DNA of 48,439 nt, from the NCBI GenBank assembly GCA_048550035.1, contig JBLYYQ010000086.1, positions 1 to 48,439 on the forward strand. The letters are read 5' to 3'. This DNA comes from Nitrospinota bacterium (GTDB lineage Bacteria > Nitrospinota_A > UBA7883 > JBLYYQ01). The notes beneath the pieces are model-generated. The model saw nothing but the letters and a program-made list of their open reading frames with translations. It ran no database searches and had not been told where the DNA came from. Shown here piece after piece: positions 10,248 to 48,439 of the stretch; positions within the stretch are counted from its first letter, which is position 1; every line of letters begins with the position of its first letter. The translations under genes were made by a program, and so were the position numbers.

Positions 10248-10253
10248 TATTTT

Positions 10254-16669: not shown

Positions 16670-16670
16670 A

Positions 16671-17360: not shown

Positions 17361-17397
17361 TTTGAAAATATATATGAGTTTCATGAAAGGAGTGGTT

Positions 17398-20300
17398 ATG
17401 TTTACTGCTATTAATAACTGTTTTTCAAGAAGAGTGCCAACGCTTGCCTCTCTTGTTTTACTTACCGCATTATCATTGACGCTATTAGATAGTAGTGATA
17501 ATCGAGCATGTGCGGCAGTTTCAGGTTGTGTGGCGACTAGCGAAAAAAATACATCGACCTCCGGATTACAACCTACTGACCTAGATGCTGCTGGGGTTGA
17601 TGTTCTTGGAGGGGATGCTATATTGCAGACAGGAGCGACAGATGCGATTGATGTTTCTAATATAAAGATTCCTTTTAATCAAGATGTTTACTTCTCATTT
17701 ATATATGAGGGTGCTACTGATGATTCATCTCTAGGCTTTTTTGAATATCAAGTTTTATTGGACTGTTTCGCTGATGCCGGGATGAATATCAATTTTACCA
17801 CGGAAGCAAACATCAATAACGGGGTAACCAATCTTGGGATACCATTTACCGAACTATACAAGGCCCACACATACTGTAAAACCAATAAAAATATTAATCT
17901 AATTAACTTTATCCTTCCAGCTCTAAAACAATCAACAGGATTTGGTGGTGTTGTAACAGGTCTAAGCGACTTATACAATCGTGACGAGTGGTGCTTGGTT
18001 CCAACAGTGACACCTCCAAATCCAGATGATCCAAACCACAACAGATTGCGTTTTAACAGCTTAACTCAAACTGGGGACCCTTGCCTTTTGACTGCTCACA
18101 CTCCTACAAATCCATCTCGTGGAGGTTGGAGTGCCGAGGAGGCATATAGAGAAGCTGGCTTTTTAGTCAACAACAATGGAAGCAACGATTTAGGTGATGT
18201 TAGACTTCACCTCGGAACCTTTACAGCAGGAACAGAACTTGTCTTTTTTCTTGTCAGGAAGAATAGTGGTAATACTACAAGGACTTTTTACTCAAAGCCA
18301 ACGCTAACCTCATACGGTTGGTCCTTTAATAATAGTGATAATGTACTATTAGGTGGTCCCGCCGGTAATGCCCCTAAATGTCCTTCAACTCCTGGAGGTT
18401 CTGGGTCACTTTGCAAGCTAGGAAATATAGCACTAGGAGATACAGCAACTTCCTCTGTTGGTTGTGGTTCTGGTACCGGAACAATTGATCTTATAATAAA
18501 TCTTGACGAAGCGGCGCCTGAAGATTTTACGGATGCTAATAGATGTAGCGGTGGTAAAATTGAATGGGATAACTCTCCCTCAACTCCTTCTTGGACACAG
18601 GGAATCTTAACAGGTAATTCACGCCAATCATTATTAGATCTCTATGATATTAATTTTACCGGCAAAATTACGGTAGCAACTTTGGAACCATACAAACCCT
18701 TCAATAACTTTGTGGCATTGGCACCTGAAGGTGATAAATACAAATGGCTCATCGGTGCTGAAAATCAAAAGGGAGGTGGTGACTTAGATTTTAATGATGT
18801 TGTCTTTTTATTAGAGCGAAAGTCAGGTGGAGTAATCGAGTTAAAAGAGAGCGAAGCATTATCACCTACTGATCCTGCTGCATATATAACATCAACTACC
18901 ATCAAGGTAAAAGATACAATCTGTGCTGGAGGTGAAATAAAATATTCTGTTTCGGTTGAAGATCTATATGGCAATCGAAACTGGATTGAGATTGATCGAA
19001 ACCAATGGCAGATAGTAAGAGAAGGTGGTCCAACTGGACCGATAGTCACTAACTGGAATTATGGAGAACCTGAAACAACCTATAGAGAGGCAGTAATTAA
19101 CTTTGCAGAAGCCGGCACTACTGGTACAAAATTGCGGTGGAAGGCAGAACTATCCTCCACTAAAACTGAATGTGCACCTGTAATTGATTTTGTTGATCTA
19201 GCGTATGTTGCAAATGTTGAAGAAGAATTTAGTAGATCAACCCCTGTTCCGTTAGCTCATATGTTATATCGATCGTCATATGCAACACCAAGCCGAACTG
19301 GGAAAGATAGAGGGCTGCGAGGTCATATGAGAGCATGGGAAAGATACAACCCGAATATCAAAGACAGTACTGACAATCCTAATTATTTATCTCTCGCTGA
19401 CCCTGCTGACCCTGCAGCGGAGATTGCAACATATGGGGCATTATCATTAGATGTTATTCATAATAGTTGGGATGGTGGTAAAGAATTAAAAACTAGCTCT
19501 TATCCCAATCGAAAAATTTATACACCTAAGGTGGAGGTAACACTGGTTGAAAATGAACTTTTGGCAACAGGTGATGACACTCGAAGTGTATTTGATAGTC
19601 TACAGTTGCGTAATAGTAGCGGGGGAGCTAGGGGGGACATTGTACTTGGTACATTAGAAATTTCTGCAGGCTCTGAAATACTTAAGCAATCTAGTGGCAG
19701 CACATTAGAAGGGGATGCAGGTGGCACTGCTGACTTTAATCGCCAAGATGGGATCATAACCAATCTTGTTTTTGCTACTCCACCACAAAATAACGTGCGG
19801 ATCACTGCTACTTACTACTACTATTCTAAGAGTGCGCTTAGTAGAACTAATGAAGGTTTAATTGAGTTTGAGAAAGGTACTCGTTCTAATCCTTCAAAAA
19901 TCACTCCTGAGCTACTCGGATTAGATGAAAGCTCTATTAGCTCTGCTGGCCGTATCATCAAATACTACGACTTTAATGCTGATCAAGCTGTTGATAATAG
20001 TGATGTAGAAACTTTAATAGATTGGGTCACTACTAGAGATGTTGATTATAAGTATAACTTTGGAGCGGCCGCAGGTCTTGGTTCCACTGGAGGAACAAGC
20101 CCAACCCACACATGGCCATTAGCAGCGATTGACCGATCAAGTCCTTCAATTTTAGGCTCACGCGGATTCCCTGTATGGTCTAATAAAGCTGGCACACAAG
20201 ATCTAACTGATGATCTACTAAAATTTATCTGTGAAGCATATGTCCATGGTGGAAGCAACGATCCAGATACTTACCTTTTTGTTGGTTCAAGCATGGGAAT

Positions 20301-21747
20301 GCTACATGCCTTTAATGCTGGCAAATTTAGACCATTTGCTATTGATACATCCGGAATCACAACATGTAGTACTTCCGCTGGTGTAGATGCATTTGTTAGG
20401 GCGCTTAGTAACCAACAAACAATGAATCGACCTGGATCAGGAAGCATAAAAGACTTTATTCATGAAACAACAGATAATCGCGGTAACTCTGTTACGATTG
20501 TTACTAATCAAGGTTATTTTGAATGGGAGGCAGGAGCTGAGGCATCCAATATAGGAACAGGTAAAGAAGAGTGGGCATTTATTCCTCAATATCAGCTACC
20601 ACGCCTGAAGAATAATTACACTAATAGTCCTAAGGAATTAGCTTCCGTTAATTCTTCACCTTCGCTTGCTCTGGTTAAATTTTCTGATGGTGAATTTCGT
20701 CGCGTATTACTCTCAGCAACAGGGAGTGGAGGTGACTCACTCTTCGCACTAGATGTTACGGATCCAGCAAACCCTGAACTATTATGGGAATTTTCTGATT
20801 CTGATCTATTTAGATCAAATTCGTCACCAGCGATAGCACTTACCAAACTGACTACAGGAGAATATCAATGGCGAGCATATTTTACCTCTGGTCAAGCTGT
20901 AGATGCAGATGCCAATATAAAAGTTTTTGCACTTGATGTCGAGGAAGGTCCTACCACCAGCAGTCATGGTGAAATAGAACTTGATAAAGATGATAAAACG
21001 AAAGGGCAAATATCATCAGGACAGCCTGTGGCAGTAGATACCGATGGTAATGGAATTATTGATCGGCTCTACCTTTCAACCAGTAATGGCTACATATACA
21101 AGATACTAATTCCTGATAATACTAACGATGATCCTGAAGTATGTAAATATCTTTATCAAACTGATGATGGGCACGGCATATATAGCGCCCCAGCCGTTGT
21201 TATGGCAAAACTTTCTGGTGCATCAACTGCCTATCCAACTATACTCTTTGGCACCTCTGACAATCCTAACGATAGTTCTGATGGACGTAAATCTGACGGT
21301 TCGCTAAAAGAGTTTACCTTTTATGCAGTACAGGATAAGGAGCTAAGCAAGACAGACTGTGGTGCAGTTGATATTAACGAAACCTGGAAAGTCGGGCTTC
21401 CTGAAGGTCATCGTGTCTTTGGATCACCTTTTGTTAGCGATGGAAAGGTAGGATTTGGGACCTCTACTGCTGAAACTGATGATCCATGTGCGGTTTCAAC
21501 ACTTGCATCTGGCGCAGATGGTAATTTCTATGTCCTAAATGTTGACGATGGATCAGAAGCAGAGGTAGAGGAGAATATTGGTAATAACGTTGCAGGACTA
21601 CATAGTTCAGGAACAAAAATCATAACTTCAACTGTTAATAATCTGATCAAAGAATCAGGAGGTAGTATTTCTGCTCCAGAGCCAGCAGGATCGATTGATC
21701 TAGGTGGCGGCATGCTGATCAACTCTTGGCGTGAGATTACTTTATAG
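17398..21747 (+). CDS. PilY1-like type IV pilus tip adhesin / biogenesis factor (about 1450 aa)
   Basis: The ATG at 17398 is preceded by AAAGGAG. Signal peptide MFTAINNCFSRRVPTLASLVLLTALSL. C-terminal PilY1-type region with the Ca-binding-like loop DTDGNGIIDRLYLSTSNGYIYKI (21037-21063). The N-terminal part has a DUF4114-like GGGDLDFNDVVFLLERK. Positioned after the pilX-like gene. Confidence 0.75.
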   Translation: MFTAINNCFSRRVPTLASLVLLTALSLTLLDSSDNRACAAVSGCVATSEKNTSTSGLQPTDLDAAGVDVLGGDAILQTGATDAIDVSNIKIPFNQDVYFSFIYEGATDDSSLGFFEYQVLLDCFADAGMNINFTTEANINNGVTNLGIPFTELYKAHTYCKTNKNINLINFILPALKQSTGFGGVVTGLSDLYNRDEWCLVPTVTPPNPDDPNHNRLRFNSLTQTGDPCLLTAHTPTNPSRGGWSAEEAYREAGFLVNNNGSNDLGDVRLHLGTFTAGTELVFFLVRKNSGNTTRTFYSKPTLTSYGWSFNNSDNVLLGGPAGNAPKCPSTPGGSGSLCKLGNIALGDTATSSVGCGSGTGTIDLIINLDEAAPEDFTDANRCSGGKIEWDNSPSTPSWTQGILTGNSRQSLLDLYDINFTGKITVATLEPYKPFNNFVALAPEGDKYKWLIGAENQKGGGDLDFNDVVFLLERKSGGVIELKESEALSPTDPAAYITSTTIKVKDTICAGGEIKYSVSVEDLYGNRNWIEIDRNQWQIVREGGPTGPIVTNWNYGEPETTYREAVINFAEAGTTGTKLRWKAELSSTKTECAPVIDFVDLAYVANVEEEFSRSTPVPLAHMLYRSSYATPSRTGKDRGLRGHMRAWERYNPNIKDSTDNPNYLSLADPADPAAEIATYGALSLDVIHNSWDGGKELKTSSYPNRKIYTPKVEVTLVENELLATGDDTRSVFDSLQLRNSSGGARGDIVLGTLEISAGSEILKQSSGSTLEGDAGGTADFNRQDGIITNLVFATPPQNNVRITATYYYYSKSALSRTNEGLIEFEKGTRSNPSKITPELLGLDESSISSAGRIIKYYDFNADQAVDNSDVETLIDWVTTRDVDYKYNFGAAAGLGSTGGTSPTHTWPLAAIDRSSPSILGSRGFPVWSNKAGTQDLTDDLLKFICEAYVHGGSNDPDTYLFVGSSMGMLHAFNAGKFRPFAIDTSGITTCSTSAGVDAFVRALSNQQTMNRPGSGSIKDFIHETTDNRGNSVTIVTNQGYFEWEAGAEASNIGTGKEEWAFIPQYQLPRLKNNYTNSPKELASVNSSPSLALVKFSDGEFRRVLLSATGSGGDSLFALDVTDPANPELLWEFSDSDLFRSNSSPAIALTKLTTGEYQWRAYFTSGQAVDADANIKVFALDVEEGPTTSSHGEIELDKDDKTKGQISSGQPVAVDTDGNGIIDRLYLSTSNGYIYKILIPDNTNDDPEVCKYLYQTDDGHGIYSAPAVVMAKLSGASTAYPTILFGTSDNPNDSSDGRKSDGSLKEFTFYAVQDKELSKTDCGAVDINETWKVGLPEGHRVFGSPFVSDGKVGFGTSTAETDDPCAVSTLASGADGNFYVLNVDDGSEAEVEENIGNNVAGLHSSGTKIITSTVNNLIKESGGSISAPEPAGSIDLGGGMLINSWREITL

Positions 21748-21761
21748 GAAAGGTACTTTTG

Positions 21762-22340
21762 ATGAGACATTTATCGGTCCAGTCAGCTACTAGCCGGGGG
21801 TTTACACTGATTGAGATGCTAGTTGTAATTGCAATTGTTGGAATTTTAACATCTATCGTCTATTTTTCTGGCTCCGCGGTTTTGCCACATAAAAGGATTG
21901 ATAATGCAACCAACAGTGTGAAAGCTATTATCAAGCGGGCTCGCTCTGAAGCAATTACCCAAAGTGCTGATAGGGCTCTTCGTATTAACCCTACAGCCGA
22001 AACATTTGAACTCAAGGTGGATCTTGCAGATACTACCAATATTCAAACCTTGGATTTAACTGGTGGGCTGGCTGAAATTAACACTCTAGCCAATTGTGGT
22101 ACTTCTCCTTCTGCCTCCAATACTATGGTGATGGTTTTTGGGAGTGATGGATCAATTAAGCAGTACTATCAAAATGGTGCTACTGCAATTCCAGGGAGCT
22201 TCCCAATAGTAATTGCTATTACTGCCGGTGGGACAACAGATAATAAAGAGATTGTTATTCACCGAGCTGGAATAGCAAAAATTTTAGATTTTGGGACAAC
22301 TTACGATCTTACTCCTGGTACTGGTGCCTGTCCTTCTTAA
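21762..22340 (+). CDS. GspH/FimT-family minor pilin
   Basis: N-terminus RGFTLIEMLVVIAIVGILTSI. About 190 aa with a GspH/FimT-like body (IIKRARSEAI). The ATG at 21762 (AAGG 7 nt upstream) is preferred over the TTG at 21759. Confidence 0.65.
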   Translation: MRHLSVQSATSRGFTLIEMLVVIAIVGILTSIVYFSGSAVLPHKRIDNATNSVKAIIKRARSEAITQSADRALRINPTAETFELKVDLADTTNIQTLDLTGGLAEINTLANCGTSPSASNTMVMVFGSDGSIKQYYQNGATAIPGSFPIVIAITAGGTTDNKEIVIHRAGIAKILDFGTTYDLTPGTGACPS

Positions 22341-39465: not shown

Positions 39466-40878
39466 CTATTTATAAGTAGTATTGAGATTGCTCTCTAAAA
39501 TTTTGTTCCACTTCTTGGCTGGAATATTGTCTGCTATCATAGCATGGCATGAGTCACAACTTTGAGTGATATTATTACCATCTTTATCTTTCATCCGTTG
39601 ATTATGGCAACGATAGCAGCCTTCACCTTGAGCATCATGACCTAGATTATCTTTATAGGTCGACCAAGTTATATTCATATCCTTATAATAGTTAGCACTA
39701 ACCTCTTGTTCAATCAGCTTGCTACTCTCTTCAAGATCAATATTGGCTGTTGGCCACTCTACTTGCAATTTATTAGAAATATAGCTTTCCCTATCATCTC
39801 TATCAATAATTGCTGCATTTTCTATGATTGAGACTAGCTTCGGTTTCGCATATGGGAGCTCTTCACTAAACAACCCTTCAACTAAAAATTTATCTGCTAA
39901 ACTACCTGACTTCTTAAATGGATGTCCTGTTCTGTTGTGACAATCAATGCAGTTAAAACTTCTGATCGATCCTTTATTATCAGATGAACCATTACTACCT
40001 TCTAGTTCCCATCTCTTTAAATTACCATCTACTCGTGCCTCCACCCAACTAATCTTATTACCACTTTTATCATCGGCGTAGTATCTAATCTCTAAGTTGT
40101 CAGCTACATGAAAGTGAGGTCCTTGATCGCTACTACCTCCTATATCAAGTAAGACAGCAGATATCTTTTTTGAACTCTCTTTATCATTGCCAAAGCTAGT
40201 ATAAACATTCATCTTCTTATACATATCTTTTTCCAGCTTATGACAGTTTAGACATGTTTCACTAGTTGAAGGGATATCTGTAGTCGAGGTTAATATCGGT
40301 CTATCATAGTGCTTAAATAAAATCGATACTACCTGTAGCATCCCTCTACTCTTTGCTTCTACCATCCCTGCGACACCTTCTCCTACATGACAATCAACAC
40401 ATGGAACAGTAGAGTGAGGTCCAAGGTTATGCGCAACCGCTTGAGGTTCCATTACACTATGACAGGTCTCTCCACAAAACTTGGTCGAATCGGCAAAATT
40501 CATCGCCTCTATCCCACCTATAAATGCAACAGCTACAAAGATCAATGTCCCTGCTATAAGGATTGAAACTGTCTTATACTCTACTATATCAGATGGTTCA
40601 TCTAATATAATAGAATCCTTTGCTTCTTTATCCTTATAGAGAAAGTGGCTAACAGCTATCAATCCTAATCCTACTATAACTCCAAAAGGGAGCACCAAAA
40701 ATCCGATCGCACCAAAATAGGGATTTATCGATTTAGAACTCAAGAAATAAAGTAATAAGAAAATAGATAGTATTACTATAGAGCCTACTGTTAATATTGC
40801 ACCTATAGTCCGAAGCCAGTTATTAGTAAGCCATACTGCTAGATTAACAACTCCTCTCAACACAATATACTTTAACAT
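39466..40878 (-). CDS. Membrane-anchored multihaem cytochrome c (6 CxxCH; NapC/NirT-like first haem module)
   Basis: 470 aa with several N-terminal TM helices. Six CxxCH motifs are seen: CGETCH, CVDCH, CLNCH, CIDCH, CYRCH, CDSCH. The first motif context FCGETCHSVMEP resembles the NapC/NrfH family. Confidence 0.75.
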   Translation of the reverse strand: MLKYIVLRGVVNLAVWLTNNWLRTIGAILTVGSIVILSIFLLLYFLSSKSINPYFGAIGFLVLPFGVIVGLGLIAVSHFLYKDKEAKDSIILDEPSDIVEYKTVSILIAGTLIFVAVAFIGGIEAMNFADSTKFCGETCHSVMEPQAVAHNLGPHSTVPCVDCHVGEGVAGMVEAKSRGMLQVVSILFKHYDRPILTSTTDIPSTSETCLNCHKLEKDMYKKMNVYTSFGNDKESSKKISAVLLDIGGSSDQGPHFHVADNLEIRYYADDKSGNKISWVEARVDGNLKRWELEGSNGSSDNKGSIRSFNCIDCHNRTGHPFKKSGSLADKFLVEGLFSEELPYAKPKLVSIIENAAIIDRDDRESYISNKLQVEWPTANIDLEESSKLIEQEVSANYYKDMNITWSTYKDNLGHDAQGEGCYRCHNQRMKDKDGNNITQSCDSCHAMIADNIPAKKWNKILESNLNTTYK

Positions 40879-40913
40879 CGTAAGCCCCTATATCTCTATT
40901 TCAGTAAGTAAGT

Positions 40914-42287
40914 TTACTTTTTTACCTTTTTGACCCGTTCCCAAGGAGGTGTGAAAAGTGAGGAATAGCTCTTTTCCATTTTACCTGATTTTAACTCAGC
41001 CATAATCTCCTTTGTGCTAGCATTTCTATACCATTTATGCCAATCAGTCTTCAGTAATTTCTCTATATAGGCATTAGCTTCTTTGTCTTTTAGTTTCTCT
41101 ACTCCTGGGATAAACTTTACATAAAAATGTTTGGCTACATCATAAATCCCATGCCACCAAGTATAGTCAGGTCCTCCCATAGCAGCTCCCATTCTCGCTC
41201 GTCTACCTTCATGATGCCAGATTTCCCAATAGAGCCATTCAACATCATTTGTAAATTTATTTTGATTCTTAAATGATTTGTTCTTCTTTAAAATGGCCAT
41301 AATCTCTTTTGCCGGAATACCAAATTTTTGGTCATAGAGATTTACTACACCATCATATTGACTATAAAAACCTTCTATAAATCGTTGACCATGGCAGTTT
41401 TTGCAGACTGATATCATTTTTGCTCGCTTCGCTTTTGAATTTTTCTTTGGCTTGCTTACAGGGGGTCTTAGATTCCATGATAGTCTGTCTCCTACGTCAT
41501 GCGTTGATTGCATTGTAGAGGTTGCACTTAAATGACATGTAGCACAGGTTGGCGCATTAAAATAATCTTCGCCTACTATCCATTTCTTTCGATCCATATT
41601 CATTTTACCTGCTGCATGTGCATACCTATATGCAATTCCATGTTTACTCTCTTCGTAAATCTCTTTTTGAGGGTGATCTGGACCTAAGTGACATTTACCG
41701 CAGTTTTCTGGCTCACGGGATTGCTCTAGAGAAAATGCATGCCTACTATGACATGCTGAACATGATCCTTCAGACCCGTCAGGATTAACTCTACCAATCC
41801 CAGTATTAGGCCACGATTTCTTTGATAATTTATTTGGGCTCTTATTATCGATCTTAACAACACTTCCATGACACATTTCACACCCTGCTATAACTGCGGG
41901 TGAGCCGCCTACTACACCTGCTAAATAGTTATCTAATGAGTCTAAGATCCGACCTGCTTTTGCATGGTGAGACTTTTGTACCTCTTCCTCTTGCCTCTCA
42001 TGACAACGACCACAATCTTTTGGAGTTACTAATGTTGCTATCGTTAAACCTTCATGTTTGAACGCATCTACATCTGTTGCTCCTGCCTGATGACAAGAAT
42101 AACAGGTTACATTTTTTGATCCATGTTCTGATGTTGCCCATTGATTATAAAGACCTGGGGTCTCTCGCTTATGGCAGGTCATACATTTACCCTGAAGCTT
42201 CTCTACAGTTTCAGCCCTTCCTTCAGAAAATAATATGACAGTTGATATTATTAGTAAAAAAAAGATTTTTAAATAGCCTCTACACAT
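40914..42287 (-). CDS. Octahaem cytochrome c of the hydroxylamine oxidoreductase (HAO) family, short form
   Basis: 457 aa with a Sec signal. Eight CxxCH motifs: CMTCH, CYSCH, CGRCH, CEMCH, CSACH, CGKCH, CATCH, CKNCH. Also has the HAO-like CGKCHLGPDHPQKEIYEESKHG and GPDYTWWHG. Confidence 0.75.
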   Translation of the reverse strand: MCRGYLKIFFLLIISTVILFSEGRAETVEKLQGKCMTCHKRETPGLYNQWATSEHGSKNVTCYSCHQAGATDVDAFKHEGLTIATLVTPKDCGRCHERQEEEVQKSHHAKAGRILDSLDNYLAGVVGGSPAVIAGCEMCHGSVVKIDNKSPNKLSKKSWPNTGIGRVNPDGSEGSCSACHSRHAFSLEQSREPENCGKCHLGPDHPQKEIYEESKHGIAYRYAHAAGKMNMDRKKWIVGEDYFNAPTCATCHLSATSTMQSTHDVGDRLSWNLRPPVSKPKKNSKAKRAKMISVCKNCHGQRFIEGFYSQYDGVVNLYDQKFGIPAKEIMAILKKNKSFKNQNKFTNDVEWLYWEIWHHEGRRARMGAAMGGPDYTWWHGIYDVAKHFYVKFIPGVEKLKDKEANAYIEKLLKTDWHKWYRNASTKEIMAELKSGKMEKSYSSLFTPPWERVKKVKK

Positions 42288-42603
42288 TATCTCTCTCCAG
42301 AAAGTTTTACGATGTATAGAATTTTATTATTAGCTTATTTGAATTGCAACTCTTTTCTACACTTTTTATTTAAAAATGAATTATTTAGAATGAGTCTAAA
42401 CTTACGATAAGGCTGCTTTTAAGAAATTATAAACTATGTAGTTAAGTCTTATTAAGTTCTATTTATATATATAAATAATAGTAACAGTAGTTATGAAATA
42501 TCTGTTGATAAGTCATATTTTACATTCTAAAACAGTAGTTTACTTTATAAAGGATATATTAAGTTATTATAAAATGAGCGGACTATTAATTAGAATTGCT
42601 TAT

Positions 42604-42612
42604 TTATCCACA
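42604..42612 (+). promoter_or_regulatory. DnaA box (TTATCCACA, perfect)
   Basis: Exact 9-mer, embedded in the 15-nt repeat TTTATCCACAGTTTA. Confidence 0.75.
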
Positions 42613-42635
42613 GTTTAGCAAAGTTTTAAAGATGT

Positions 42636-42644
42636 TTATCCACA
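42636..42644 (+). promoter_or_regulatory. DnaA box (TTATCCACA, perfect)
   Basis: Exact 9-mer, same orientation, 32 bp from the first, in the same 15-nt context. Ends 2 nt before the dnaA stop codon. Confidence 0.75.
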
Positions 42645-42646
42645 GT

Positions 42647-44106: not shown

Positions 44107-44544
44107 TTACTTTCGAACAATATCAGTGTCAAAGATATCCCCTGTTAAGATATCCTCTATAGTTATTGAATAAAGTAAAGTTTCAAACTGTTTAAAAAGA
44201 TAAGACCATAGTCGTTGTGTCTTACATAGATATGATTTAGAACATGTCAATAACTCTTCAGATGTACTACATTCTGTAAGCTCCATTGATTCATCAACCG
44301 CCATAAAGATATCACCAATTGATATTTCTGACGGATCTTTTGTCAAAAGATAGCCTCCACCAGGTCCACGGACTGATTTTACTAACCCACCTTTTCGCAA
44401 TTTTAAAAAGAGCTGTTCTAAATAATGAAGAGATGTATTTTCGATCCTCGATATCTCAGCTAGCGATAGAGGTTTAGATTTATCTCTAGATGCCATGCAG
44501 ACTAACGCTTCAACAGCATAATGACCTTTAGAAGAGATTTTCAT
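44107..44544 (-). CDS. Rrf2-family transcriptional regulator (three-Cys, IscR/NsrR-like)
   Basis: 145 aa. SSKGHYAVEALVCMA, wHTH LSLAEISRIENTSLHYLEQLFLKLRKGGLVKSVRGPGGGY and a C-x8-C-x5-C cluster (TECSTSEELLTCSKSYLC). Confidence 0.85.
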   Translation of the reverse strand: MKISSKGHYAVEALVCMASRDKSKPLSLAEISRIENTSLHYLEQLFLKLRKGGLVKSVRGPGGGYLLTKDPSEISIGDIFMAVDESMELTECSTSEELLTCSKSYLCKTQRLWSYLFKQFETLLYSITIEDILTGDIFDTDIVRK

Positions 44545-44545
44545 A

Positions 44546-44785
44546 TTACTTTTTCTTTACATATATTTCCCACAAATTATTCCCAATCAGGTCAGGTCCT
44601 TTTACAATTTCGTGACCCTCATTTTGCAAACTCTTTGGGACATTGATACTAGCAGGTTGATGATCTAAGATAATTTTCAGAATTTCGCCTGAGTTTATAG
44701 ACTCAATCTTTAACTTTGACTCTACAAATGTATAAGGACAGACTTCACCTTGTATATCTATAGTATGATCTGCTTTGATATCCAT
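44546..44785 (-). CDS. tusA: TusA/SirA-family sulfurtransferase
   Basis: 79 aa. The active-site context DIQGEVCPYTFVESKLKI (CP motif) and the alpha/beta two-layer length fit TusA. Confidence 0.85.
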   Translation of the reverse strand: MDIKADHTIDIQGEVCPYTFVESKLKIESINSGEILKIILDHQPASINVPKSLQNEGHEIVKGPDLIGNNLWEIYVKKK

Positions 44786-44816
44786 AACACTCCTTTAATA
44801 AGAGATAGTAAAACTA

Positions 44817-45101
44817 CTAATATGTAATAACTGCTCCAGACTTCTCAAGTAGATCGATAAAATTGCCATAATCAAATTTTTCAAAACTAGAATCGATCTT
44901 CCGGTTGGCAATGGCACTTTTTAAGACATAAATTTTTTTATTTTTTAACGAACATTTAAGCTTACTTTCAAAATCATCTTCTCTCCAATACGAGCCATTT
45001 TGAGCAAGTACAATATTTGCCGATGCATCAAAATAGATCTTAAGCTTATCAATGACCGCTTCATCTGGGGTTTTAGTCAAAAATAGGATTCCATTACCCA
45101 T
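44817..45101 (-). CDS. DsrH/TusB-like small sulfur-relay protein
   Basis: 94 aa. By-eye alignment to TusB/DsrH: ILFL..P, IVLAQNG, IYVLKSAIANRKI, DYGNFIDLL. The family call needs an HMM check. Confidence 0.55.
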   Translation of the reverse strand: MGNGILFLTKTPDEAVIDKLKIYFDASANIVLAQNGSYWREDDFESKLKCSLKNKKIYVLKSAIANRKIDSSFEKFDYGNFIDLLEKSGAVITY

Positions 45102-45107
45102 AATTAT

Positions 45108-46094
45108 TTAACCACCAGAAGTAAATTCACAATCGCAAGAATCAGGCAACACGGTAACAATAGTAGCATCCTGATCCAAAGTTGAGGCAAGCTCCACAGC
45201 CGCTGCTAACGCAGCACCTGATGAAGAACCGATATTAATATTGTAAAGTTCATAAATGAGTCCGACCATTTTATATGCTTGATCAGTTGTTACAGAGATC
45301 TTACCATCTAGTTCGTCAGGTCTGTAGATTTTAGGAACAATAGAGGATGGCATATGTTTAAGCCCCTCAATGCCATGTAACGATTCAGCAGGTTCAACGG
45401 CAAATGCTTTTATATCACTATTGAATCGCTCCTTCAAACCGCGAGAGACACCCATAATAGTTCCAGTAGTACCAAGACCTGCAAGAAAATGTGTCACTTT
45501 ATGACCGGTCTGCTCCCATATCTCAGTGGCCGTACTATTATAATGAGCACGCCAGTTGGCATCGTTATTATATTGATCAGGCCAGAAGTACGATTTGGGA
45601 TTTTGTTGATAGATTTCTTCACATAATTTTATCGCACCATCTGACCCTTCAAATGGGGATGAATAGACTATCTCTGCATGGTATGAAGAGCTCATCAACT
45701 GTTTACGCTCACCACAGACATTTTGTGGCATCACGATTTTAACATGATAGCCTTTAATGAGACCGATCAGTGCATAAGCCACTCCGGTATTACCAGAGGT
45801 TGAATCTAATATCGTAATACCAGGTTTAAGTAGCCCACTCTTTTCACCTTCTAGAATCATATTAAGGGCTGCCCTAGATTTAACAGATCCGCCTGCGTTA
45901 TACCATTCAGCTTTGGCAAAAATAGTCACATTTGGGTTTAGCCCAAACTGATCATTCAGCTTACTAAACTCGAGCAGAGGTGTGTTCCCGATTGTTTTAA
46001 ATAGCGATTCATTTAGATCCTCTTTCGCTACATGGGATGTCTTAGTTAATTTTGATTTTGTTGTTAGTAGTTGCTTTGCCACTTTAAAATTCAC
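45108..46094 (-). CDS. PLP-dependent cysteine synthase, CysM-like (thiocarboxylate-dependent type)
   Basis: 328 aa. GNTPLLEF, PLP lysine GSVKSRAA, TSGNTGVAYA and HFLAGLGTTGTIMG. DQYNNDAN closely parallels mycobacterial CysM (YQYGNPAN, HFVAGLGTTGTLMG). Confidence 0.85.
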   Translation of the reverse strand: MNFKVAKQLLTTKSKLTKTSHVAKEDLNESLFKTIGNTPLLEFSKLNDQFGLNPNVTIFAKAEWYNAGGSVKSRAALNMILEGEKSGLLKPGITILDSTSGNTGVAYALIGLIKGYHVKIVMPQNVCGERKQLMSSSYHAEIVYSSPFEGSDGAIKLCEEIYQQNPKSYFWPDQYNNDANWRAHYNSTATEIWEQTGHKVTHFLAGLGTTGTIMGVSRGLKERFNSDIKAFAVEPAESLHGIEGLKHMPSSIVPKIYRPDELDGKISVTTDQAYKMVGLIYELYNINIGSSSGAALAAAVELASTLDQDATIVTVLPDSCDCEFTSGG

Positions 46095-46109
46095 CTATCA
46101 TAATAGAAG

Positions 46110-46457
46110 TTACAATATTGCAGACTGCTTACTTAAAAAGATGCTTATCTGATTACTATCTAACAATGTTAGATTAGATTTCGAATCGCTTTTTATGTTG
46201 GCATTGATTGCAGCCTCTTGTTCTATAAAAAATGGGACTTCGACTTGAGATAACATAAGTAAATGTTTACTTAGATCAAACGGATCATAGCTTCGATCTT
46301 CTCCTGGTTTGATTAGAAAAGTTCTGATTCCATCAGCAATAACCAGAATATTTACTCTATTTTCATCAACCAGAGTTAATCCGAGCCCCATTCTCATCTT
46401 TTCAGCCAGCTTTAAAGATGGCGCTTGATCTAGTAGTATAGTGATATTTTTTTCCAT
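46110..46457 (-). CDS. DsrF/TusC-like small sulfur-relay protein (cysteine-free)
   Basis: 115 aa. ITILLDQAP...GLGLTLVDE..VNILVIADGIRTFL resembles the TusC/DsrF N-terminal half. The protein has no Cys. Confidence 0.5.
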   Translation of the reverse strand: MEKNITILLDQAPSLKLAEKMRMGLGLTLVDENRVNILVIADGIRTFLIKPGEDRSYDPFDLSKHLLMLSQVEVPFFIEQEAAINANIKSDSKSNLTLLDSNQISIFLSKQSAIL

Positions 46458-46460
46458 AAA

Positions 46461-46772
46461 TCATCTATCAATAAATGCGATAACTTTATCTGCGGTCGCC
46501 ACAAGTTGAGCCAGTTCATATTGACTTTGATATTTAACATCTGGAAGATTAAGAGGAGCTTGAAGCATTATACGGTTATGCTCGCAGACTGTAATAACTG
46601 CTCCAAGCTTAGCTAGTTCCAGAAACTTTTCATCGGCAAGATGAGTTACTCCATCAGCCATAAGAAAAATATCGACATTATGTCTCTTTTTTAATGCAGC
46701 TTTAGTAAGGTTAATGACCGAAATTTTATCTTGATCAAAGTAGCTACTTTGCAATGTAAAGAGTATCTTCAC
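46461..46772 (-). CDS. DsrE/TusD-like small sulfur-relay protein (conserved Cys)
   Basis: 103 aa. ILFTLQSS.., IFLMADGV. The single Cys, in VITVCEHNR, is positioned like the active Cys of TusD/DsrE (..ICVAAA..). Confidence 0.55.
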   Translation of the reverse strand: MKILFTLQSSYFDQDKISVINLTKAALKKRHNVDIFLMADGVTHLADEKFLELAKLGAVITVCEHNRIMLQAPLNLPDVKYQSQYELAQLVATADKVIAFIDR

Positions 46773-46779
46773 AACTCTC

Positions 46780-47583
46780 TTACGTCCTTACTTGGCAAAA
46801 CTCTTCGTAATCAATAGGCTCATGAATTGTCCGGTTGCTAGAGCATATCAAGCAGTCAGGATCTTTCTGGATCTTAAGCTTACGAAATTCAGTGGCTAAT
46901 GCATCATAAAGTAAAAGTCTCCCAATAAGAGGCTGACCGATACCAATGATAATTTTAATAACCTCTTGAGCCTGTAGTAATCCAATAATGCCAGGTAATA
47001 TCCCTAGCACACCTGCTTCATGGCACGATGGTGTGGAACCTGGAGGAGGAGGTTCAGGATAGAGACAACGATAGCAAGGACCAGTTTTACTATCAAATAC
47101 TGTGACCTGTCCTTCAAACCGGAAGATAGAGCCATGGATATTTGGTTTCTTTTGAAAGACCGTTAGATCGTTTATAAGATAGCGTGCTGGGAAATTATCT
47201 GTCCCGTCAACTACAATATCAAACTCCGATATTATATCAGCCCCATTTTTGGCATTAAACCTCTCATAAAAAAGTTCAACATCTACGCCAGGGTTGAGCT
47301 TGTTGATAAACTCTTTAGCAGAGTCTGCCTTATACTGACCGACATTATCGACATTATGTATAATTTGTCGCTGTAGATTAGATACCTCAACCTTATCAAA
47401 ATCTACGATTCCGATCTTACCAACACCAGCTGCTGCAAGATAAGCCAGTAATGGCGATCCTAACCCACCAGCACCAATAGATAAAACTTTGGATTTTAAT
47501 AATTTTTCCTGACCAACACCACCAACTTCAGGTAATATTATATGGCGTGCATATCTATAAACCTCTTCTTTTGTAAACTCCAT
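46780..47583 (-). CDS. MoeB/ThiF-family E1-like adenylyltransferase (no rhodanese domain)
   Basis: 267 aa. RYARHIILPEVGGVGQEKL, GAGGLGSP, SNLQRQ, the Zn pairs CYRC and CLIC, and the conserved Cys in PSCHEAGVLG. The protein ends right after the second CxxC, so it has no C-terminal rhodanese module. Confidence 0.9.
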   Translation of the reverse strand: MEFTKEEVYRYARHIILPEVGGVGQEKLLKSKVLSIGAGGLGSPLLAYLAAAGVGKIGIVDFDKVEVSNLQRQIIHNVDNVGQYKADSAKEFINKLNPGVDVELFYERFNAKNGADIISEFDIVVDGTDNFPARYLINDLTVFQKKPNIHGSIFRFEGQVTVFDSKTGPCYRCLYPEPPPPGSTPSCHEAGVLGILPGIIGLLQAQEVIKIIIGIGQPLIGRLLLYDALATEFRKLKIQKDPDCLICSSNRTIHEPIDYEEFCQVRT

Positions 47584-47599
47584 ATCTTAAGCCTCTTCT

Positions 47600-47884
47600 T
47601 TACCTAATCCCACCTGCAATAGCCGGAATGACTGAAATTTCATCACCATCAGCTAATTTAGTATCAAGTCCATCTCTTGAGCGAATATCTTCGTCATTAA
47701 CAAAGATATTGATAAACTTCCGTAGATTACCATCCTCATCGAGCAGTTTAGTGGCAATGCCTGGATAACTCCCATCCAGATTTGTAATTAGCTCTCCTAA
47801 TTTCTCTGCAGACCCATTAATAGTAGGTTCACCATCAGTCAAAAGCTGTAGTGCAGTCGGAATTCTGACCGTAACGGTTGACAT
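47600..47884 (-). CDS. ThiS/MoaD-fold sulfur carrier protein, CysO-like (GG followed by two extra residues)
   Basis: 94 aa. VTVRIPTAL..., FINIFVNDEDIRSRDGLDTKLADGDEISVIPAIAGG-IR closely parallels mycobacterial CysO (..FVNIYVNDEDVRFSGGL..ADGDSVTILPAVAGG). Confidence 0.85.
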   Translation of the reverse strand: MSTVTVRIPTALQLLTDGEPTINGSAEKLGELITNLDGSYPGIATKLLDEDGNLRKFINIFVNDEDIRSRDGLDTKLADGDEISVIPAIAGGIR

Positions 47885-48094
47885 TCTTATATAGTTCCTT
47901 TCTGGCTTGGTAGCGTAACTGTTTAGACTTAATATTAGTATAAGTACTTGACTGTTGTTGTCAACTATTATTCGACTTTTAATCTAGGAGAGTGGTAGGC
48001 AAAAACTACCTCTATTTAAAGCCATTTTTGATACAAATAGTTATCCGAATTCAAGCAAATTCTATAAGTCATTGATTTTATACTCATTTCATTT

Positions 48095-48195: not shown

Positions 48196-48439
48196 ATGAA
48201 TAGTAATAGTTTTAAGGAAATTTTCCAATCAGAGGAGCAAGAACAGGCAAAAGGTGGCGTAGGGGAGATAAATCTAGTCAGCGAAGAGGAAGCTCAGCCG
48301 CAAGAGAGTGTAGGGAAGATAAATCTAGTCAGCGAAGAGGAAGGTCAGCCGCAAGAGAGTGTAGGGAAGATAAATCTAGTCAACGAGGAGCAAGCTCAGC
48401 CACAAGATACTATAGAGAAAATAAATCTAGTCAGCGAAG
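48196..48439 (+). CDS. Acidic tandem-repeat protein, N-terminal part only (runs off the window end)
   Basis: AGGAGG lies about 10 nt upstream of the ATG at 48196; an in-frame ATG at 48124 is also possible. The frame is open to the window end and reads MNSNSFKEIFQSEEQEQAKGG, then 17-aa repeats VG(E/K)INLVSEEE(A/G)QPQES. Not in the ORF track because there is no stop. Confidence 0.6.
   Translation, partial: MNSNSFKEIFQSEEQEQAKGGVGEINLVSEEEAQPQESVGKINLVSEEEGQPQESVGKINLVNEEQAQPQDTIEKINLVSE
48259..48439 (+). repeat. 51-bp in-frame tandem repeat (3.5 units visible)
   Basis: Units at 48259-48309, 48310-48360, 48361-48411 and 48412 to the window end. Units 1 and 2 differ at 2 of 51 positions by my reading. 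Confidence 0.9.

What the first reader, a model, noticed from the sequence alone, without database searches (positions are those of the whole stretch)
44107..47884. Eight-gene operon joining a CysO/CysM-type thiocarboxylate cysteine pathway to a TusA/DsrEFH-like persulfide relay
Seen directly: eight tightly packed co-directional genes with gaps of 1-31 nt. In order they are a CysO-like ThiS-fold carrier, a MoeB-like E1, a DsrE-like protein with a Cys, a Cys-free DsrF-like protein, a CysM-like PLP synthase, a DsrH-like protein, TusA, and an Rrf2 regulator.

Established background:
- In mycobacteria, CysO-thiocarboxylate plus CysM makes cysteine, and the E1 (MoeZ) carries its own rhodanese domain for sulfur loading.
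- Wolinella uses an analogous HcyS/HcyF system for homocysteine.
- TusA to TusBCD/DsrEFH relays feed tRNA thiolation or DsrC.

Inference: the E1 here is only 267 aa and lacks a rhodanese module, while TusA and three DsrE-family proteins are interleaved with the synthase gene (dsrE-dsrF-cysM-dsrH). This suggests a persulfide relay that loads the carrier thiocarboxylate in trans. It would tap the sulfur-oxidiser's sulfane pool for assimilation without free sulfide. I do not know of a characterised system with this composition.
Basis: partly seen in the sequence, partly recalled or inferred. Interest (0 to 1): 0.8.

Follow-up and report, generated by a model that had tools for sequence, protein, structure and literature searches.

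The report
Sulfur relay built into cysteine-synthesis operon
A Nitrospinota bacterium carries an operon for making cysteine through a small sulfur-carrier protein, and built into it are four sulfur-passing proteins (TusA and a short DsrE/F/H trio) that are found beside the same kind of carrier-activating enzyme in at least eight phyla of bacteria and archaea, which points to an undescribed way of loading sulfur onto such carriers.

Summary
Eight co-directional genes lie on the minus strand at 44107-47884, with gaps of 1-31 nt. In order they are:
- a ThiS/CysO-like carrier;
- a 267-aa ThiF/MoeB/UbaA-type E1 with no rhodanese domain;
- DsrE-like, DsrF-like, a CysM-type PLP synthase, and DsrH-like;
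- TusA and an Rrf2 regulator.

Family profiles of the three small proteins each hit their own subunit of solved DsrEFH/TusBCD. The DsrE-like protein has one Cys (Cys63), invariant across its family.

The cluster is conserved. A scan of species-representative genomes found this short DsrE family in 128 places. In the 83 loci mapped, an RHD-less E1 was nearby in 69 and TusA in 66. The taxa include Nitrospinota, Nitrospirota, Methylomirabilota, Thermodesulfobacteriota, Chloroflexota, Poribacteria and Methanoperedens. Bacterial loci usually add ThiS, CysM, a ThrC/MetM-like synthase, NIL proteins, Rrf2 and sometimes a JAMM peptidase.

Best reading: thiocarboxylate-dependent cysteine synthesis, with TusA and short DsrEFH supplying persulfide sulfur to the E1-carrier adenylate. 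This is inferred, not shown.

- The relay is accessory: Nitrohelix-type relatives have the same E1 without it.
- The carrier ends GG-IR, so it needs a peptidase.
- The link to sulfur oxidation is weak.

This is a new variant of known kinds.

The parts
47937..47964 (-). Promoter-like site TTGACA-16-TATACT, about 53 nt upstream of the carrier gene. Its -35 hexamer lies in the palindrome TTGAC-N7-GTCAA, a candidate operator.
   Evidence: 11 of 12 consensus matches, the best in the region. One search shows clusters in other phyla with a similar CTTGACA -35. Function is not shown, and the scan as a whole is not enriched over shuffles.
47600..47884 (-). ThiS/MoaD-fold sulfur-carrier protein (CysO/MetO/SAMP-like), 94 aa. 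The C-terminus is ...AIAGG-IR.
   Evidence: Pfam ThiS 56.1 bits. NCBIfam SAMP1 58 bits and archaeal MoaD 47 bits, both just below cut-off. The AIAGG motif is conserved in 25 homologues, with 0-2 extra residues in most.
46780..47583 (-). E1-type adenylyltransferase (ThiF/MoeB/UbaA-like), 267 aa, with no rhodanese domain.
   Evidence: Pfam ThiF 282.7 bits over residues 11-245. It matches only the E1 part of the MoeZ and rhodanese-MoeB models, and UbaA end to end. Invariant Cys170/173/244/247 (two CxxC), loop Cys187 and C-terminal Cys263.
46461..46772 (-). Short DsrE/TusD-like subunit, 103 aa, with a single Cys (Cys63) as the candidate persulfide carrier.
   Evidence: Pfam DsrE 23.5 bits. The family profile hits YchN, DsrE 2hy5_A and TusD 2d1p_A. 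Cys63 is invariant in 46 and in 55 family members. AF2 model pLDDT 95.1 places Cys63 at the strand-to-helix junction; Foldseek gives TM 0.83 to DsrE.
46110..46457 (-). Short DsrF/TusC-like subunit, 115 aa, with no Cys.
   Evidence: The single sequence scores only 14.4 bits to Pfam DsrE. The family profile hits DsrF 2hy5_B at 3.1e-12 and TusC 2d1p_B at 5.7e-4. It is adjacent to the DsrE-like gene in 81 of 83 loci.
45108..46094 (-). CysM-type PLP-dependent cysteine synthase, 328 aa (an alternative start gives 324 aa). It sits between the DsrF-like and DsrH-like genes.
   Evidence: Pfam PALP 208.9 bits. TIGR01138 cysM 294 bits vs cysK 235, both below equivalog cut-offs. PDB: E. coli CysM 189 bits, M. 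tuberculosis CysM 180, CysK types 150-162. Orthologues at 58-70% identity across Nitrospinota always lie next to ThiS-ThiF.
44817..45101 (-). Short DsrH/TusB-like subunit, 94 aa; a divergent member of its family.
   Evidence: Pfam DsrH 21.0 bits and TIGR03011 TusB 25.8 bits (E 8.8e-6), both below cut-off. The family profile hits TM0979 at 1e-12, DsrH 2hy5_C at 4.7e-9 and TusB 2d1p_C at 6e-7.
44546..44785 (-). TusA-family sulfur carrier, 79 aa, of a distinct subfamily with the motif GEVCPYTFV(K/E)SKL.
   Evidence: Pfam TusA 65.7 bits. The motif is nearly identical from Nitrospinota to Methanoperedens.
44107..44544 (-). Rrf2-family regulator, 145 aa, with Cys92, Cys101 and Cys107 in IscR-like spacing.
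   Evidence: Pfam Rrf2 127.3 bits. IscR model 140 bits and CymR 90 bits, both below cut-offs. An Rrf2 gene is part of the cluster in 18 of 83 loci across five named phyla and unclassified bacteria.

Best explanation
The operon encodes a protein-thiocarboxylate route to cysteine with its own sulfur-delivery module.

Proposed steps:
1. The 94-aa ThiS-fold carrier is trimmed to its GG end by a JAMM peptidase encoded elsewhere.
2. The rhodanese-less E1 adenylates the carrier.
3. Sulfane sulfur is picked up by TusA and passed to Cys63 of the DsrE-like subunit of a short DsrE/F/H complex.
4. One of these persulfides attacks the carrier acyl-adenylate on the E1, doing the job that the fused rhodanese domain does in MoeZ, MOCS3 and Uba4. 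After reduction the carrier thiocarboxylate is released.
5. The CysM-type PLP enzyme uses the thiocarboxylate as nucleophile on an activated serine (O-phosphoserine or O-acetylserine). The product rearranges and is cleaved to cysteine.
6. The Rrf2 protein, probably sensing an Fe-S cluster or thiol state, controls the operon from the promoter at about 47950.

Shown here: the gene identities, the invariant Cys63, the DsrE fold, and the conserved linkage.

Inferred: the direction of sulfur flow, the direct donor to the E1, the serine ester used, the origin of the sulfane sulfur, and the regulation.
For: - Identities of all eight proteins.
- The same order, ThiS-ThiF-DsrE-DsrF-CysM-DsrH-TusA-(NIL)-Rrf2, appears in other Nitrospinota, including a locus whose DsrE is 38% identical.
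- Of 83 loci with this DsrE family, 81 have DsrF, at least 65 have DsrH, 69 have an E1 of about 269 aa without rhodanese, and 66 have TusA within seven genes.
- In bacteria other than anammox, the E1 is present in 29 of 32 loci and is commonly joined by ThiS, CysM, a ThrC/MetM-like synthase, NIL and Rrf2. In Methanoperedenaceae/Methanosarcinales, 37 of 42 loci have E1-TusA-DsrE-DsrF-DsrH as a stand-alone unit.
- JAMM/desampylase-like peptidases lie inside the cluster in at least 8 loci.
- One NC10 locus fuses ThiS to the E1 directly upstream of DsrE-F-H, with Rrf2-CysM in front.
- No ORF with a DsrC/TusE-type C-terminal Cys-x10-Cys end occurs in the window or in 88 loci, so the usual acceptor of DsrEFH/TusBCD is not encoded nearby.
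- Published biochemistry makes each step plausible. TusA to DsrE transfer through the conserved Cys is shown for type II DsrEFH (PMC13293266). The SirA/TusA-for-rhodanese idea is from PMC1779556. The MetM/MetO thiocarboxylate pathway is cited in bioRxiv 10.1101/2024.10.14.618325.
Against: - No experiment exists; everything beyond identity is based on gene linkage.
- Relatives (Ca. Nitrohelix and another Nitrospinia genome) have CysK-ThrC/MetM-ThiS-E1-CysM-ferredoxin with the same E1 and no relay nearby. The E1 can therefore presumably be loaded otherwise, for example by sulfide.
- TusA/DsrE transfer is bidirectional in vitro, so direction is open.
- In anammox bacteria the short DsrEFH usually sits with LplA-like and radical-SAM genes and without an E1 (5 of 7 loci).
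- One Poribacteria locus has a second E1 and a ThiI/MnmA-like tRNA-thiolation enzyme after TusA. The module may serve several clients.
- The window's DsrH-like and DsrF-like proteins are divergent members (14-27% and 18-33% identity to the family sets).
- The window's cluster lacks the ThrC/MetM-like, NIL and JAMM genes seen elsewhere.
- CysM scores below the equivalog cut-offs, and its substrate preference was not tested.
Confidence: 0.55

Rival explanations
1. General sulfur-mobilisation hub. E1 + TusA + short DsrEFH make or handle protein thiocarboxylates and persulfides for several acceptors, such as tRNA thiolation, molybdopterin, homocysteine and cysteine. CysM is only one client. Alternatively, sulfur flows from the thiocarboxylate or cysteine pool out to the relay.
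For: - Methanoperedens has the five-gene E1-TusA-DsrEFH unit with no CysM or ThiS beside it.
- A Poribacteria locus adds a second E1 and a ThiI/MnmA-like PP-loop protein with an RNA-binding domain.
- ThrC/MetM-like synthases share the cluster in 19 loci.
- TusA/DsrE transfer is reversible in vitro.
Against: - In the window and in other Nitrospinota, cysM is physically interleaved between dsrF and dsrH, and the only carrier client encoded is CysM.
- No MoaE, TtuA or NcsA gene was recognised in the clusters inspected, although no profile for them was run.
- Using cysteine-derived sulfur to make cysteine would be futile.
Confidence: 0.2
2. The relay carries thiosulfate or another oxidised sulfur species, as DsrE3A/TusA of Metallosphaera do. 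It feeds the CysM-type enzyme directly to give S-sulfocysteine. The E1-carrier pair would be a parallel or reductive branch.
For: - E. coli CysM is the thiosulfate-using isozyme, and the window enzyme scores best against it in the PDB.
- JGI names some orthologues 'S-sulfo-L-cysteine synthase'.
- One NC10 locus has a YeeE-type Sulf_transp protein and a double rhodanese next to two TusA genes and a ThrC/MetM-like gene.
- SoxYZ is in the window.
Against: - The linkage that is conserved across phyla is relay-E1, not relay-CysM.
- Type II DsrEFH and its TusA did not bind thiosulfate in vitro.
- No YeeE gene is in the window cluster.
Confidence: 0.08
3. The DsrE/F/H-like proteins and TusA belong to dissimilatory sulfur oxidation, passing sulfur to DsrC for reverse DsrAB as in type I or type II DsrEFH. 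They merely sit next to assimilation genes.
For: - Some Nitrospinota classes encode DsrAB. A comparative study counted dsrEFH and tusA-next-to-dsrE as oxidation markers (PMC10839748).
- SoxYZ and a hydrogenase are in the window.
- Some related loci carry DsrM/DsrK-like and GcvH-like genes.
Against: - The genes are interleaved with cysM and co-directional, with 3-31 nt gaps.
- The linkage to the E1 persists in Methanoperedens, Poribacteria and NC10.
- No DsrC/TusE-like ORF and no dsrAB was seen in the window or in the gene maps of 88 loci.
- The family is small and separate from canonical DsrE: 50 representatives at E<=1e-3 among 1.84 billion proteins.
Confidence: 0.07

Closest known systems
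M. tuberculosis CysO-CysM-MoeZ-Mec cysteine pathway (established knowledge; Table 1 rows 4c/4d of PMC1779556)
   Same: A ThiS-fold carrier, an E1 and a CysM-type PLP synthase lie together. Related loci also carry a JAMM peptidase.
   Different: The E1 here has no rhodanese domain. TusA plus three DsrE/F/H-like genes are inserted. There is no JAMM gene in this window although the carrier ends GG-IR. The regulator is an Rrf2 protein. The CysM substrate (O-phosphoserine or O-acetylserine) is untested.
Wolinella-type HcyS/HcyF/HcyD/MetY sulfur-assimilation operons with SirA (=TusA) (PMC1779556 row 4e)
   Same: A rhodanese-less E1 is always accompanied by a TusA-family protein, predicted in 2006 to play the rhodanese role. 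The thiocarboxylate is used for amino-acid sulfur.
   Different: Those operons carry the sulfate-reduction genes and MetY, and they lack a DsrE/F/H trio. Here the synthase is CysM-type (plus ThrC/MetM-like in relatives), and sulfate or sulfite reduction genes are absent from nearly all clusters examined (the exception is L016).
Streptomyces MetM/MetO thiocarboxylate homocysteine pathway (Hasebe et al. 2024, as cited in bioRxiv 10.1101/2024.10.14.618325)
   Same: Most related clusters start with a threonine-synthase homologue directly upstream of the carrier gene, the arrangement expected for MetM and MetO.
   Different: That gene is missing from this window's cluster. The Streptomyces system uses MoeZ with a rhodanese domain. 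MetM identity of the Nitrospinota protein is not proven: it passes the generic thrC model.
DsrEFH type II / YTD cluster of cable bacteria and sulfate reducers (PMC13293266; PMC13047784)
   Same: A short, divergent E/F/H trio (33 kDa trimer) encoded with tusA. The active Cys lies near position 65 (Cys67 there, Cys63 here). TusA-to-DsrE transfer is shown in vitro.
   Different: Type II is syntenic with yeeE/yedE, co-occurs with reductive DsrAB, and hands sulfur to DsrC. Here the partners are an E1, a carrier and CysM, with no YeeE in the window cluster and no DsrC-like ORF nearby. Those papers mention neither E1 linkage nor Nitrospinota nor Methanoperedens. The F and H subunits here still align with canonical DsrF and DsrH, unlike those of cable bacteria. 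No direct sequence comparison was possible.
E. coli TusA-TusBCD-TusE-MnmA relay, and TusA's influence on MoaD/MoeB (established knowledge; PMC5372717 and PMC11302665 listed)
   Same: TusA plus a D/C/B (E/F/H) complex with one catalytic Cys. TusA is already linked to a rhodanese-less E1 (MoeB) pathway.
   Different: In E. coli the TusBCD acceptor is TusE and the sulfur comes from IscS. There is no genetic linkage of tusBCD to an E1, and the product is tRNA s2U, not an amino acid.

Membership tests
ThiS/MoaD sulfur-carrier proteins (CysO/MetO/SAMP type) | Beta-grasp ThiS-family domain | tested here: met
   Pfam ThiS 56.1 bits, cut-off 22.5.
ThiS/MoaD sulfur-carrier proteins (CysO/MetO/SAMP type) | C-terminal Gly-Gly available for adenylation | tested here: inconclusive
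   The GG is present but followed by Ile-Arg. Relatives carry mostly 0-2 extra residues. A peptidase is needed and none is encoded in the window cluster.
ThiS/MoaD sulfur-carrier proteins (CysO/MetO/SAMP type) | Formation of a C-terminal thiocarboxylate | not testable with these tools
   Needs mass spectrometry of the protein.
E1 adenylyltransferases (ThiF/MoeB/UbaA) | ThiF nucleotide-binding domain, two CxxC zinc motifs and a loop Cys | tested here: met
   Pfam ThiF 282.7 bits. Cys170/173/244/247/187 are invariant in 21 E1s.
MoeZ/MOCS3/Uba4 (E1 fused to rhodanese) | C-terminal rhodanese domain with a catalytic Cys | tested here: not met
   The protein ends at residue 267. It matches MoeZ model positions 14-275 of 392 only, and there is no Rhodanese hit.
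DsrEFH/TusBCD sulfur-relay complex | Three paralogous subunits, each matching its own subunit type | tested here: met
   The profiles hit 2hy5_A/2d1p_A, 2hy5_B/2d1p_B and 2hy5_C/2d1p_C respectively.
DsrEFH/TusBCD sulfur-relay complex | Conserved catalytic Cys in the E/D subunit, at the start of a helix | tested here: met
   Cys63 is invariant. The model has strand 59-63 and helix 64-70. TM 0.83 to DsrE.
DsrEFH/TusBCD sulfur-relay complex | Stable E-F-H heterotrimer or heterohexamer | not testable with these tools
   No multimer prediction was available. Only co-occurrence was tested (81 of 83 and at least 65 of 83 loci).
DsrEFH/TusBCD sulfur-relay complex | DsrC/TusE-type acceptor as partner | tested here: not met
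   No ORF with a C-terminal Cys-x10-Cys end occurs in the window or in 88 loci (a crude motif test). All eight cluster genes are otherwise assigned.
DsrEFH type II (YTD cluster) | Synteny with yeeE/yedE and tusA | tested here: not met
   tusA is present. There is no Sulf_transp gene in the window cluster; one was seen only in L084 among the neighbours scanned.
DsrEFH type II (YTD cluster) | Sequence membership in the published type II clusters | not tested
   No type II sequence could be obtained. Size and Cys position are similar.
TusA family | TusA domain with a conserved Cys in a Cys-Pro-x-Pro motif | tested here: inconclusive
   Pfam TusA 65.7 bits. The motif here is Cys-Pro-Tyr-Thr, conserved in this subfamily. 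CPxP is the canonical form.
CysM-type cysteine synthase (carrier- or thiosulfate-using) | PLP fold type II enzyme closer to CysM than to CysK | tested here: met
   cysM 294 vs cysK 235 bits. PDB CysM 180-190 vs CysK 150-162 bits.
CysM-type cysteine synthase (carrier- or thiosulfate-using) | Passes an equivalog model of CysM | tested here: not met
   294.4 bits, below the 394.2 cut-off of TIGR01138; 248.6 bits, below the 413 cut-off of PRK11761.
CysM-type cysteine synthase (carrier- or thiosulfate-using) | Uses carrier thiocarboxylate and O-phosphoserine | not testable with these tools
   Only gene adjacency to the carrier and E1 in all relatives examined.
Rrf2 regulators | Rrf2 winged-helix domain and three Cys for a cluster | tested here: met
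   Pfam Rrf2 127.3 bits. Cys92, Cys101 and Cys107 are read from the sequence. It is below the IscR and CymR equivalog cut-offs.

The most novel reading that the evidence does not exclude
A short DsrE/F/H complex with a dedicated TusA (motif GEVCPYTFVKSKL) is a trans-acting substitute for the rhodanese domain of ubiquitin-like-carrier E1 enzymes. It loads persulfide sulfur onto carrier acyl-adenylates in bacteria and in Methanoperedens archaea. This would be the first DsrEFH-type relay whose acceptor is a ThiS-fold thiocarboxylate rather than DsrC or TusE. It would allow cysteine and methionine to be made from sulfane sulfur without a free sulfide pool.
Probability: 0.45. Interest if true: 0.75.

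Novelty: new variant of a known kind. Interest (0 to 1): 0.62.

Why it matters
- **Sulfur donor for rhodanese-less E1 enzymes.** To my knowledge, how these enzymes (UbaA of archaea, many MoeB/ThiF-like proteins) obtain sulfur for thiocarboxylate formation is unresolved. A five-gene E1-TusA-DsrEFH unit conserved from Nitrospinota to Methanoperedens gives a concrete donor that can be tested in vitro.
- **A new acceptor and role for DsrEFH-type complexes.** If correct, these complexes serve assimilation as well as tRNA thiolation and dissimilatory sulfur oxidation.
- **A caution for genome-based predictions.** dsrEFH and tusA-next-to-dsrE are used as markers of sulfur oxidation, including in Nitrospinota (PMC10839748). 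Copies embedded in these assimilation clusters would be miscounted.
- **Combined clusters.** They join two recently described thiocarboxylate routes (CysO/CysM and MetO/MetM) on one carrier and one E1. The organisms are nitrogen-cycle specialists that are hard to culture.

Tried and rejected
- **Word-indexed homologue search with the 103-aa DsrE-like protein** found only itself. The exhaustive phmmer search and a profile search were needed.
- **Locus search with the 46-sequence alignment** failed for lack of a conserved stretch. A 10-sequence subset worked.
- **A DsrH-like HMM seeded only from the window protein** found nothing else. It was rebuilt from positional orthologues.
- **Riboswitch or other RNA leader:** Rfam at gathering threshold finds only a tRNA in the whole window.
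- **Terminator between Rrf2 and dnaA:** none predicted. Promoter and terminator counts are no higher than in shuffles, so only the single best promoter match is reported.
- **Inverted repeats in the upstream gap:** one weak pair, 76% complementary. It was not used.
- **Methanoperedens neighbours of the module** were inspected by reading their sequences. They look like an ABC transporter ATPase, membrane proteins with an HEAGH metalloprotease-like motif, and thiolase-like proteins. None looked sulfur-related, so that module stands alone.
- **Equating the family with DsrEFH type II:** not possible without a reference sequence, and the papers' supplements held none.
- **M. tuberculosis-specific CysM residues (O-phosphoserine binding):** not checked, because no reference sequence could be brought into an alignment.
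- **A linked-chain or multimer structure prediction** was not attempted. The tool folds single chains and accepts only window or database sequences.
- **Canonical dissimilatory Dsr function** was considered and rated low (see the rival explanations).

Full report
**What is there.** The window is a contig of a Nitrospinota metagenome-assembled genome. The CysM-like protein is 100% identical to an NCBI entry from a 48,439-bp contig. On the minus strand between 47884 and 44107 lie eight ORFs with gaps of 16, 7, 3, 15, 6, 31 and 1 nt. Upstream is a 311-bp gap shared with a divergently transcribed gene. That gap holds the best sigma-70-like match of the region, TTGACA-16-TATACT at 47964-47937. Downstream, after 125 nt, comes dnaA.

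**Identities of the large proteins.**
- Pfam places the first protein in ThiS (56 bits), the second in ThiF (283 bits), the fifth in PALP (209 bits), the seventh in TusA (66 bits) and the eighth in Rrf2 (127 bits).
- The E1 is 267 aa and has nothing beyond the ThiF domain. Against NCBIfam it matches only the E1 part of MoeZ (model positions 14-275 of 392) and of a rhodanese-MoeB model. It aligns end to end with the archaeal SAMP-activating UbaA model.
- The synthase scores higher with CysM models than with CysK models (294 vs 235 bits) but stays below all equivalog cut-offs. Against solved structures it scores 189 bits with E. coli CysM, 180 with M. tuberculosis CysM, and 150-162 with CysK-type enzymes.
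- In related clusters a separate true CysK (428 bits, above cut-off) is also present. The window enzyme is therefore not an ordinary CysK.

**Identities of the three small proteins.**
- As single sequences they are weak: DsrE 23.5 bits (just above cut-off), DsrE 14.4 bits, and DsrH 21.0 bits.
- I collected their families from related loci and searched the PDB with profiles. The DsrE-like profile hits YchN, A. vinosum DsrE (1.6e-6) and E. coli TusD. The DsrF-like profile hits DsrF (3.1e-12) and TusC. The DsrH-like profile hits TM0979, DsrH (4.7e-9) and TusB. Each family finds its own subunit.
- The DsrE-like protein has one cysteine, Cys63, invariant in 46 and in 55 family members.
- An AlphaFold2 model (pLDDT 95.1) puts Cys63 at the end of a strand and the start of a helix. 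Its best structural matches are YchN and DsrE, with TM-score 0.80-0.83.
- The DsrF-like protein has no cysteine.

**How common is the DsrE-like family.** An exhaustive phmmer search of 1.84 billion representative proteins gave only 50 hits at E<=1e-3. A profile search of the larger collection gave about 85 strong hits, then a sharp drop to a different group of 117-aa DsrE proteins. It is a small, discrete family of roughly 100-aa proteins.

**Where it occurs.** A scan of one genome per species found 128 places, of which 80 were fetched. I called ORFs in all loci and assigned them with HMMs built from the window proteins and their positional orthologues. Of 83 loci with a DsrE-like gene:
- 81 have the DsrF-like gene next to it, and at least 65 the DsrH-like gene;
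- 69 have an E1 of about 269 aa within seven genes, and 66 have TusA;
- 23 have ThiS, 20 CysM, 19 a threonine-synthase homologue, 19 NIL-domain proteins, 18 Rrf2, and at least 8 a JAMM peptidase.

**Breakdown by taxon.**
- Nitrospinota (14 loci) mostly show [CysK]-ThrC/MetM-like-ThiS-E1-DsrE-DsrF-CysM-DsrH-TusA-NIL-Rrf2.
- Nitrospirota, Methylomirabilota, Thermodesulfobacteriota, Poribacteria, Chloroflexota and unclassified bacteria show the same parts in other orders, often with a JAMM gene.
- Of 42 Methanoperedenaceae/Methanosarcinales loci, 37 carry E1-TusA-DsrE-DsrF-DsrH as a stand-alone unit.
- Anammox bacteria are the exception: an E1 is nearby in only 2 of 7 loci.
- One Methylomirabilis locus fuses ThiS to the E1 directly upstream of DsrE-F-H.

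The part that stays together across domains is thus the rhodanese-less E1 with TusA and the short DsrEFH. That is the comparative-genomic signature of a functional unit.

**The relay is accessory.** Ca. Nitrohelix vancouverensis and another Nitrospinia genome have CysK-ThrC/MetM-like-ThiS-E1-CysM followed by a thioredoxin-like 2Fe-2S ferredoxin, with no DsrE/F/H or TusA nearby. Their E1s are the same length and keep all six invariant cysteines, including the loop Cys187 and the C-terminal Cys263. The absence of a rhodanese domain therefore does not by itself call for the relay. The relay is an added sulfur-supply module in some lineages.

**The carrier needs processing.** It ends AIAGG-IR. Nitrospinota homologues usually carry one or two residues after GG, while several Nitrospirota-type loci end exactly at GG. 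JAMM/desampylase-like genes lie inside the cluster in other phyla, but none is in this window.

**The TusA is a distinct subfamily.** It carries GEVCPYTFV(K/E)SKL, almost unchanged from Nitrospinota to Methanoperedens. The canonical motif is Cys-Pro-x-Pro.

**Mechanism.** The best-supported reading is a CysO/CysM-type thiocarboxylate route to cysteine. In it, TusA and the DsrE-like Cys63 deliver a persulfide to the carrier adenylate held by the E1.
- Identity, the invariant Cys, the fold and the linkage are shown here.
- TusA-to-DsrE transfer through the equivalent cysteine has been shown for the related type II DsrEFH (PMC13293266).
- Everything else is inference: direction of flow, which protein touches the E1, the reductant, the serine ester and the sulfur source.
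- The usual acceptor of such relays, a DsrC/TusE protein, is not encoded in the window or in any of the 88 loci, by a simple C-terminal motif test. This leaves the E1-carrier pair as the obvious neighbouring acceptor.

**Sulfur source.** The window does contain SoxY and SoxZ, about 37 kb away. But the module is most frequent in Methanoperedens and also occurs in anammox and NC10 bacteria, so a general tie to sulfur oxidation is not supported. Some loci hint at varied sources and reductants:
- a small sulfite-reductase-like protein and a DsrM/DsrK-like fusion (L016);
- DsrM-like, DsrK-like and GcvH-like proteins (L018);
- a YeeE-type transporter with a double rhodanese (L084);
- GcvH-like, radical-SAM and LplA-like genes (L030 and anammox loci).

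**Comparison with what is known.**
- Iyer, Burroughs and Aravind (2006) already noted that sulfur-assimilation operons with a rhodanese-less E1 always contain SirA (=TusA), and they proposed that it replaces the rhodanese (PMC1779556). Those operons have no DsrE/F/H genes.
- The MetM/MetO thiocarboxylate route to homocysteine (cited) explains the threonine-synthase homologue next to the carrier in most relatives.
- A short 'DsrEFH type II' encoded with tusA and yeeE was described in 2026 and assigned to dissimilatory sulfur oxidation through DsrC. It resembles the present trio in size and Cys position. Its context differs, and the paper and its supplements mention neither an E1 nor Nitrospinota nor Methanoperedens. 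I could not compare sequences directly.
- In the searchable literature, none of the nine papers returned for TusA, DsrE, thiocarboxylate and MoeB contains 'DsrE', so none combines TusA, DsrE and thiocarboxylate. Searches combining DsrE/DsrH with ThiF/ThiS/cysteine synthase found no description of this cluster.
- A comparative study of Nitrospinota counted dsrEFH and tusA-next-to-dsrE as sulfur-oxidation markers (PMC10839748). Some of those counts may be this assimilation cluster.

**Verdict.** The relay-E1 coupling is strongly suggested by conservation across at least eight phyla of bacteria and archaea. However, the relay is accessory, the sulfur-oxidiser rationale is weak, and parts of the idea have precedents. 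I rate it a new variant of known kinds, with moderate-to-high interest, because it offers a testable candidate for the sulfur donor of rhodanese-less E1 enzymes.

Noticed in passing
window 6387-7171 (-) and 7279-12326 (-): A SoxZ (6387-6728) and SoxY (6719-7171) pair lies directly beside a [NiFe] uptake-hydrogenase set: HycI-like protease, two cytochrome b subunits, and large and small subunits. No SoxAX or SoxB was seen in the window.
   Followed up: partly
window 39466-42287 (-): Two multihaem c-type cytochromes (470 aa NapC/NirT-like; 457 aa Multi-haem_cyto) sit between gyrB and dnaA.
   Followed up: no
window 42288-42646: The only two perfect DnaA boxes (TTATCCACA) of the whole window are at 42604-42612 and 42636-42644, in the AT-rich gap next to dnaA. 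This is probably oriC, about 1.5 kb from the cluster. The relative L005 also has its cluster beside dnaA-gyrB.
   Followed up: partly
window 48196-48439 (+): A divergently transcribed gene begins at 48196 and runs off the window. It encodes an acidic 17-aa tandem repeat (consensus about VGKINLVSEEEAQPQES; 51 bp x 3.5 copies, 89% matches).
   Followed up: partly
window 1051-5959 (-): A biotin-synthesis block: a fused BioD-BioA-like protein (AAA_26 + class III aminotransferase, 690 aa), a BioC-like methyltransferase and a BioH-like hydrolase, followed by SAM synthetase MetK.
   Followed up: no
window 15087-22340 (+): A type IV pilus minor-pilin set with a 1480-aa PilY1-like protein. It is the only large plus-strand block in the window, and GC skew is positive there.
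   Followed up: no
L016, L018, L020, L030, L037 (e.g. L030 7976-9024): These loci carry a second, different DsrE/F/H set. Its DsrE is 117-130 aa with the motif ACG(I/V)CVNARG, and it has its own TusA type (GKICPYTL...). It often lies next to DsrM/DsrK-like, GcvH-like, radical-SAM and LplA-like genes. In L018 and L020 this set also lies beside an E1.
   Followed up: partly
L019, L022, L032, L035 (anammox), e.g. L032 4723-7937: In most anammox loci (e.g. L022, L032) the short DsrE/F/H trio follows a radical-SAM gene, preceded in L032 by an LplA-like lipoate ligase, and has no E1 or TusA nearby. This suggests another client, possibly lipoate-related sulfur insertion.
   Followed up: partly
L042 8294-10485: In a Poribacteria MAG, TusA is followed by a second E1 (283 aa) and a ThiI/MnmA-like PP-loop protein with an NFACT-R RNA-binding domain. 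This looks like a tRNA-thiolation branch attached to the same relay.
   Followed up: partly
L088 5749-6891: In a Methylomirabilis MAG the ThiS domain is fused to the N-terminus of the E1 (380 aa). The order is Rrf2-CysM-ThiS::E1-DsrE-DsrF-DsrH.
   Followed up: yes
L002 8507-9001 and equivalents in 19 loci: Small proteins made only of NIL domains (one or two copies, no cysteines in the L002 protein) are a regular member of the clusters. They lie next to ThiS, E1 or TusA, and they are absent from this window. Their role is unknown; NIL domains are known as methionine-binding regulatory domains (established knowledge).
   Followed up: partly
upstream regions of clusters in window, L002, L005, L009, L010, L015, L042, L073, L076, L081, L088: Clusters from several phyla start with a very similar strong -35 element (CTTGACA). 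L042 and L073 share a palindrome (GACCAAGTTGGTC) just after the -10, and the window has TTGAC-N7-GTCAA over its -35. These are candidate Rrf2 operators.
   Followed up: partly
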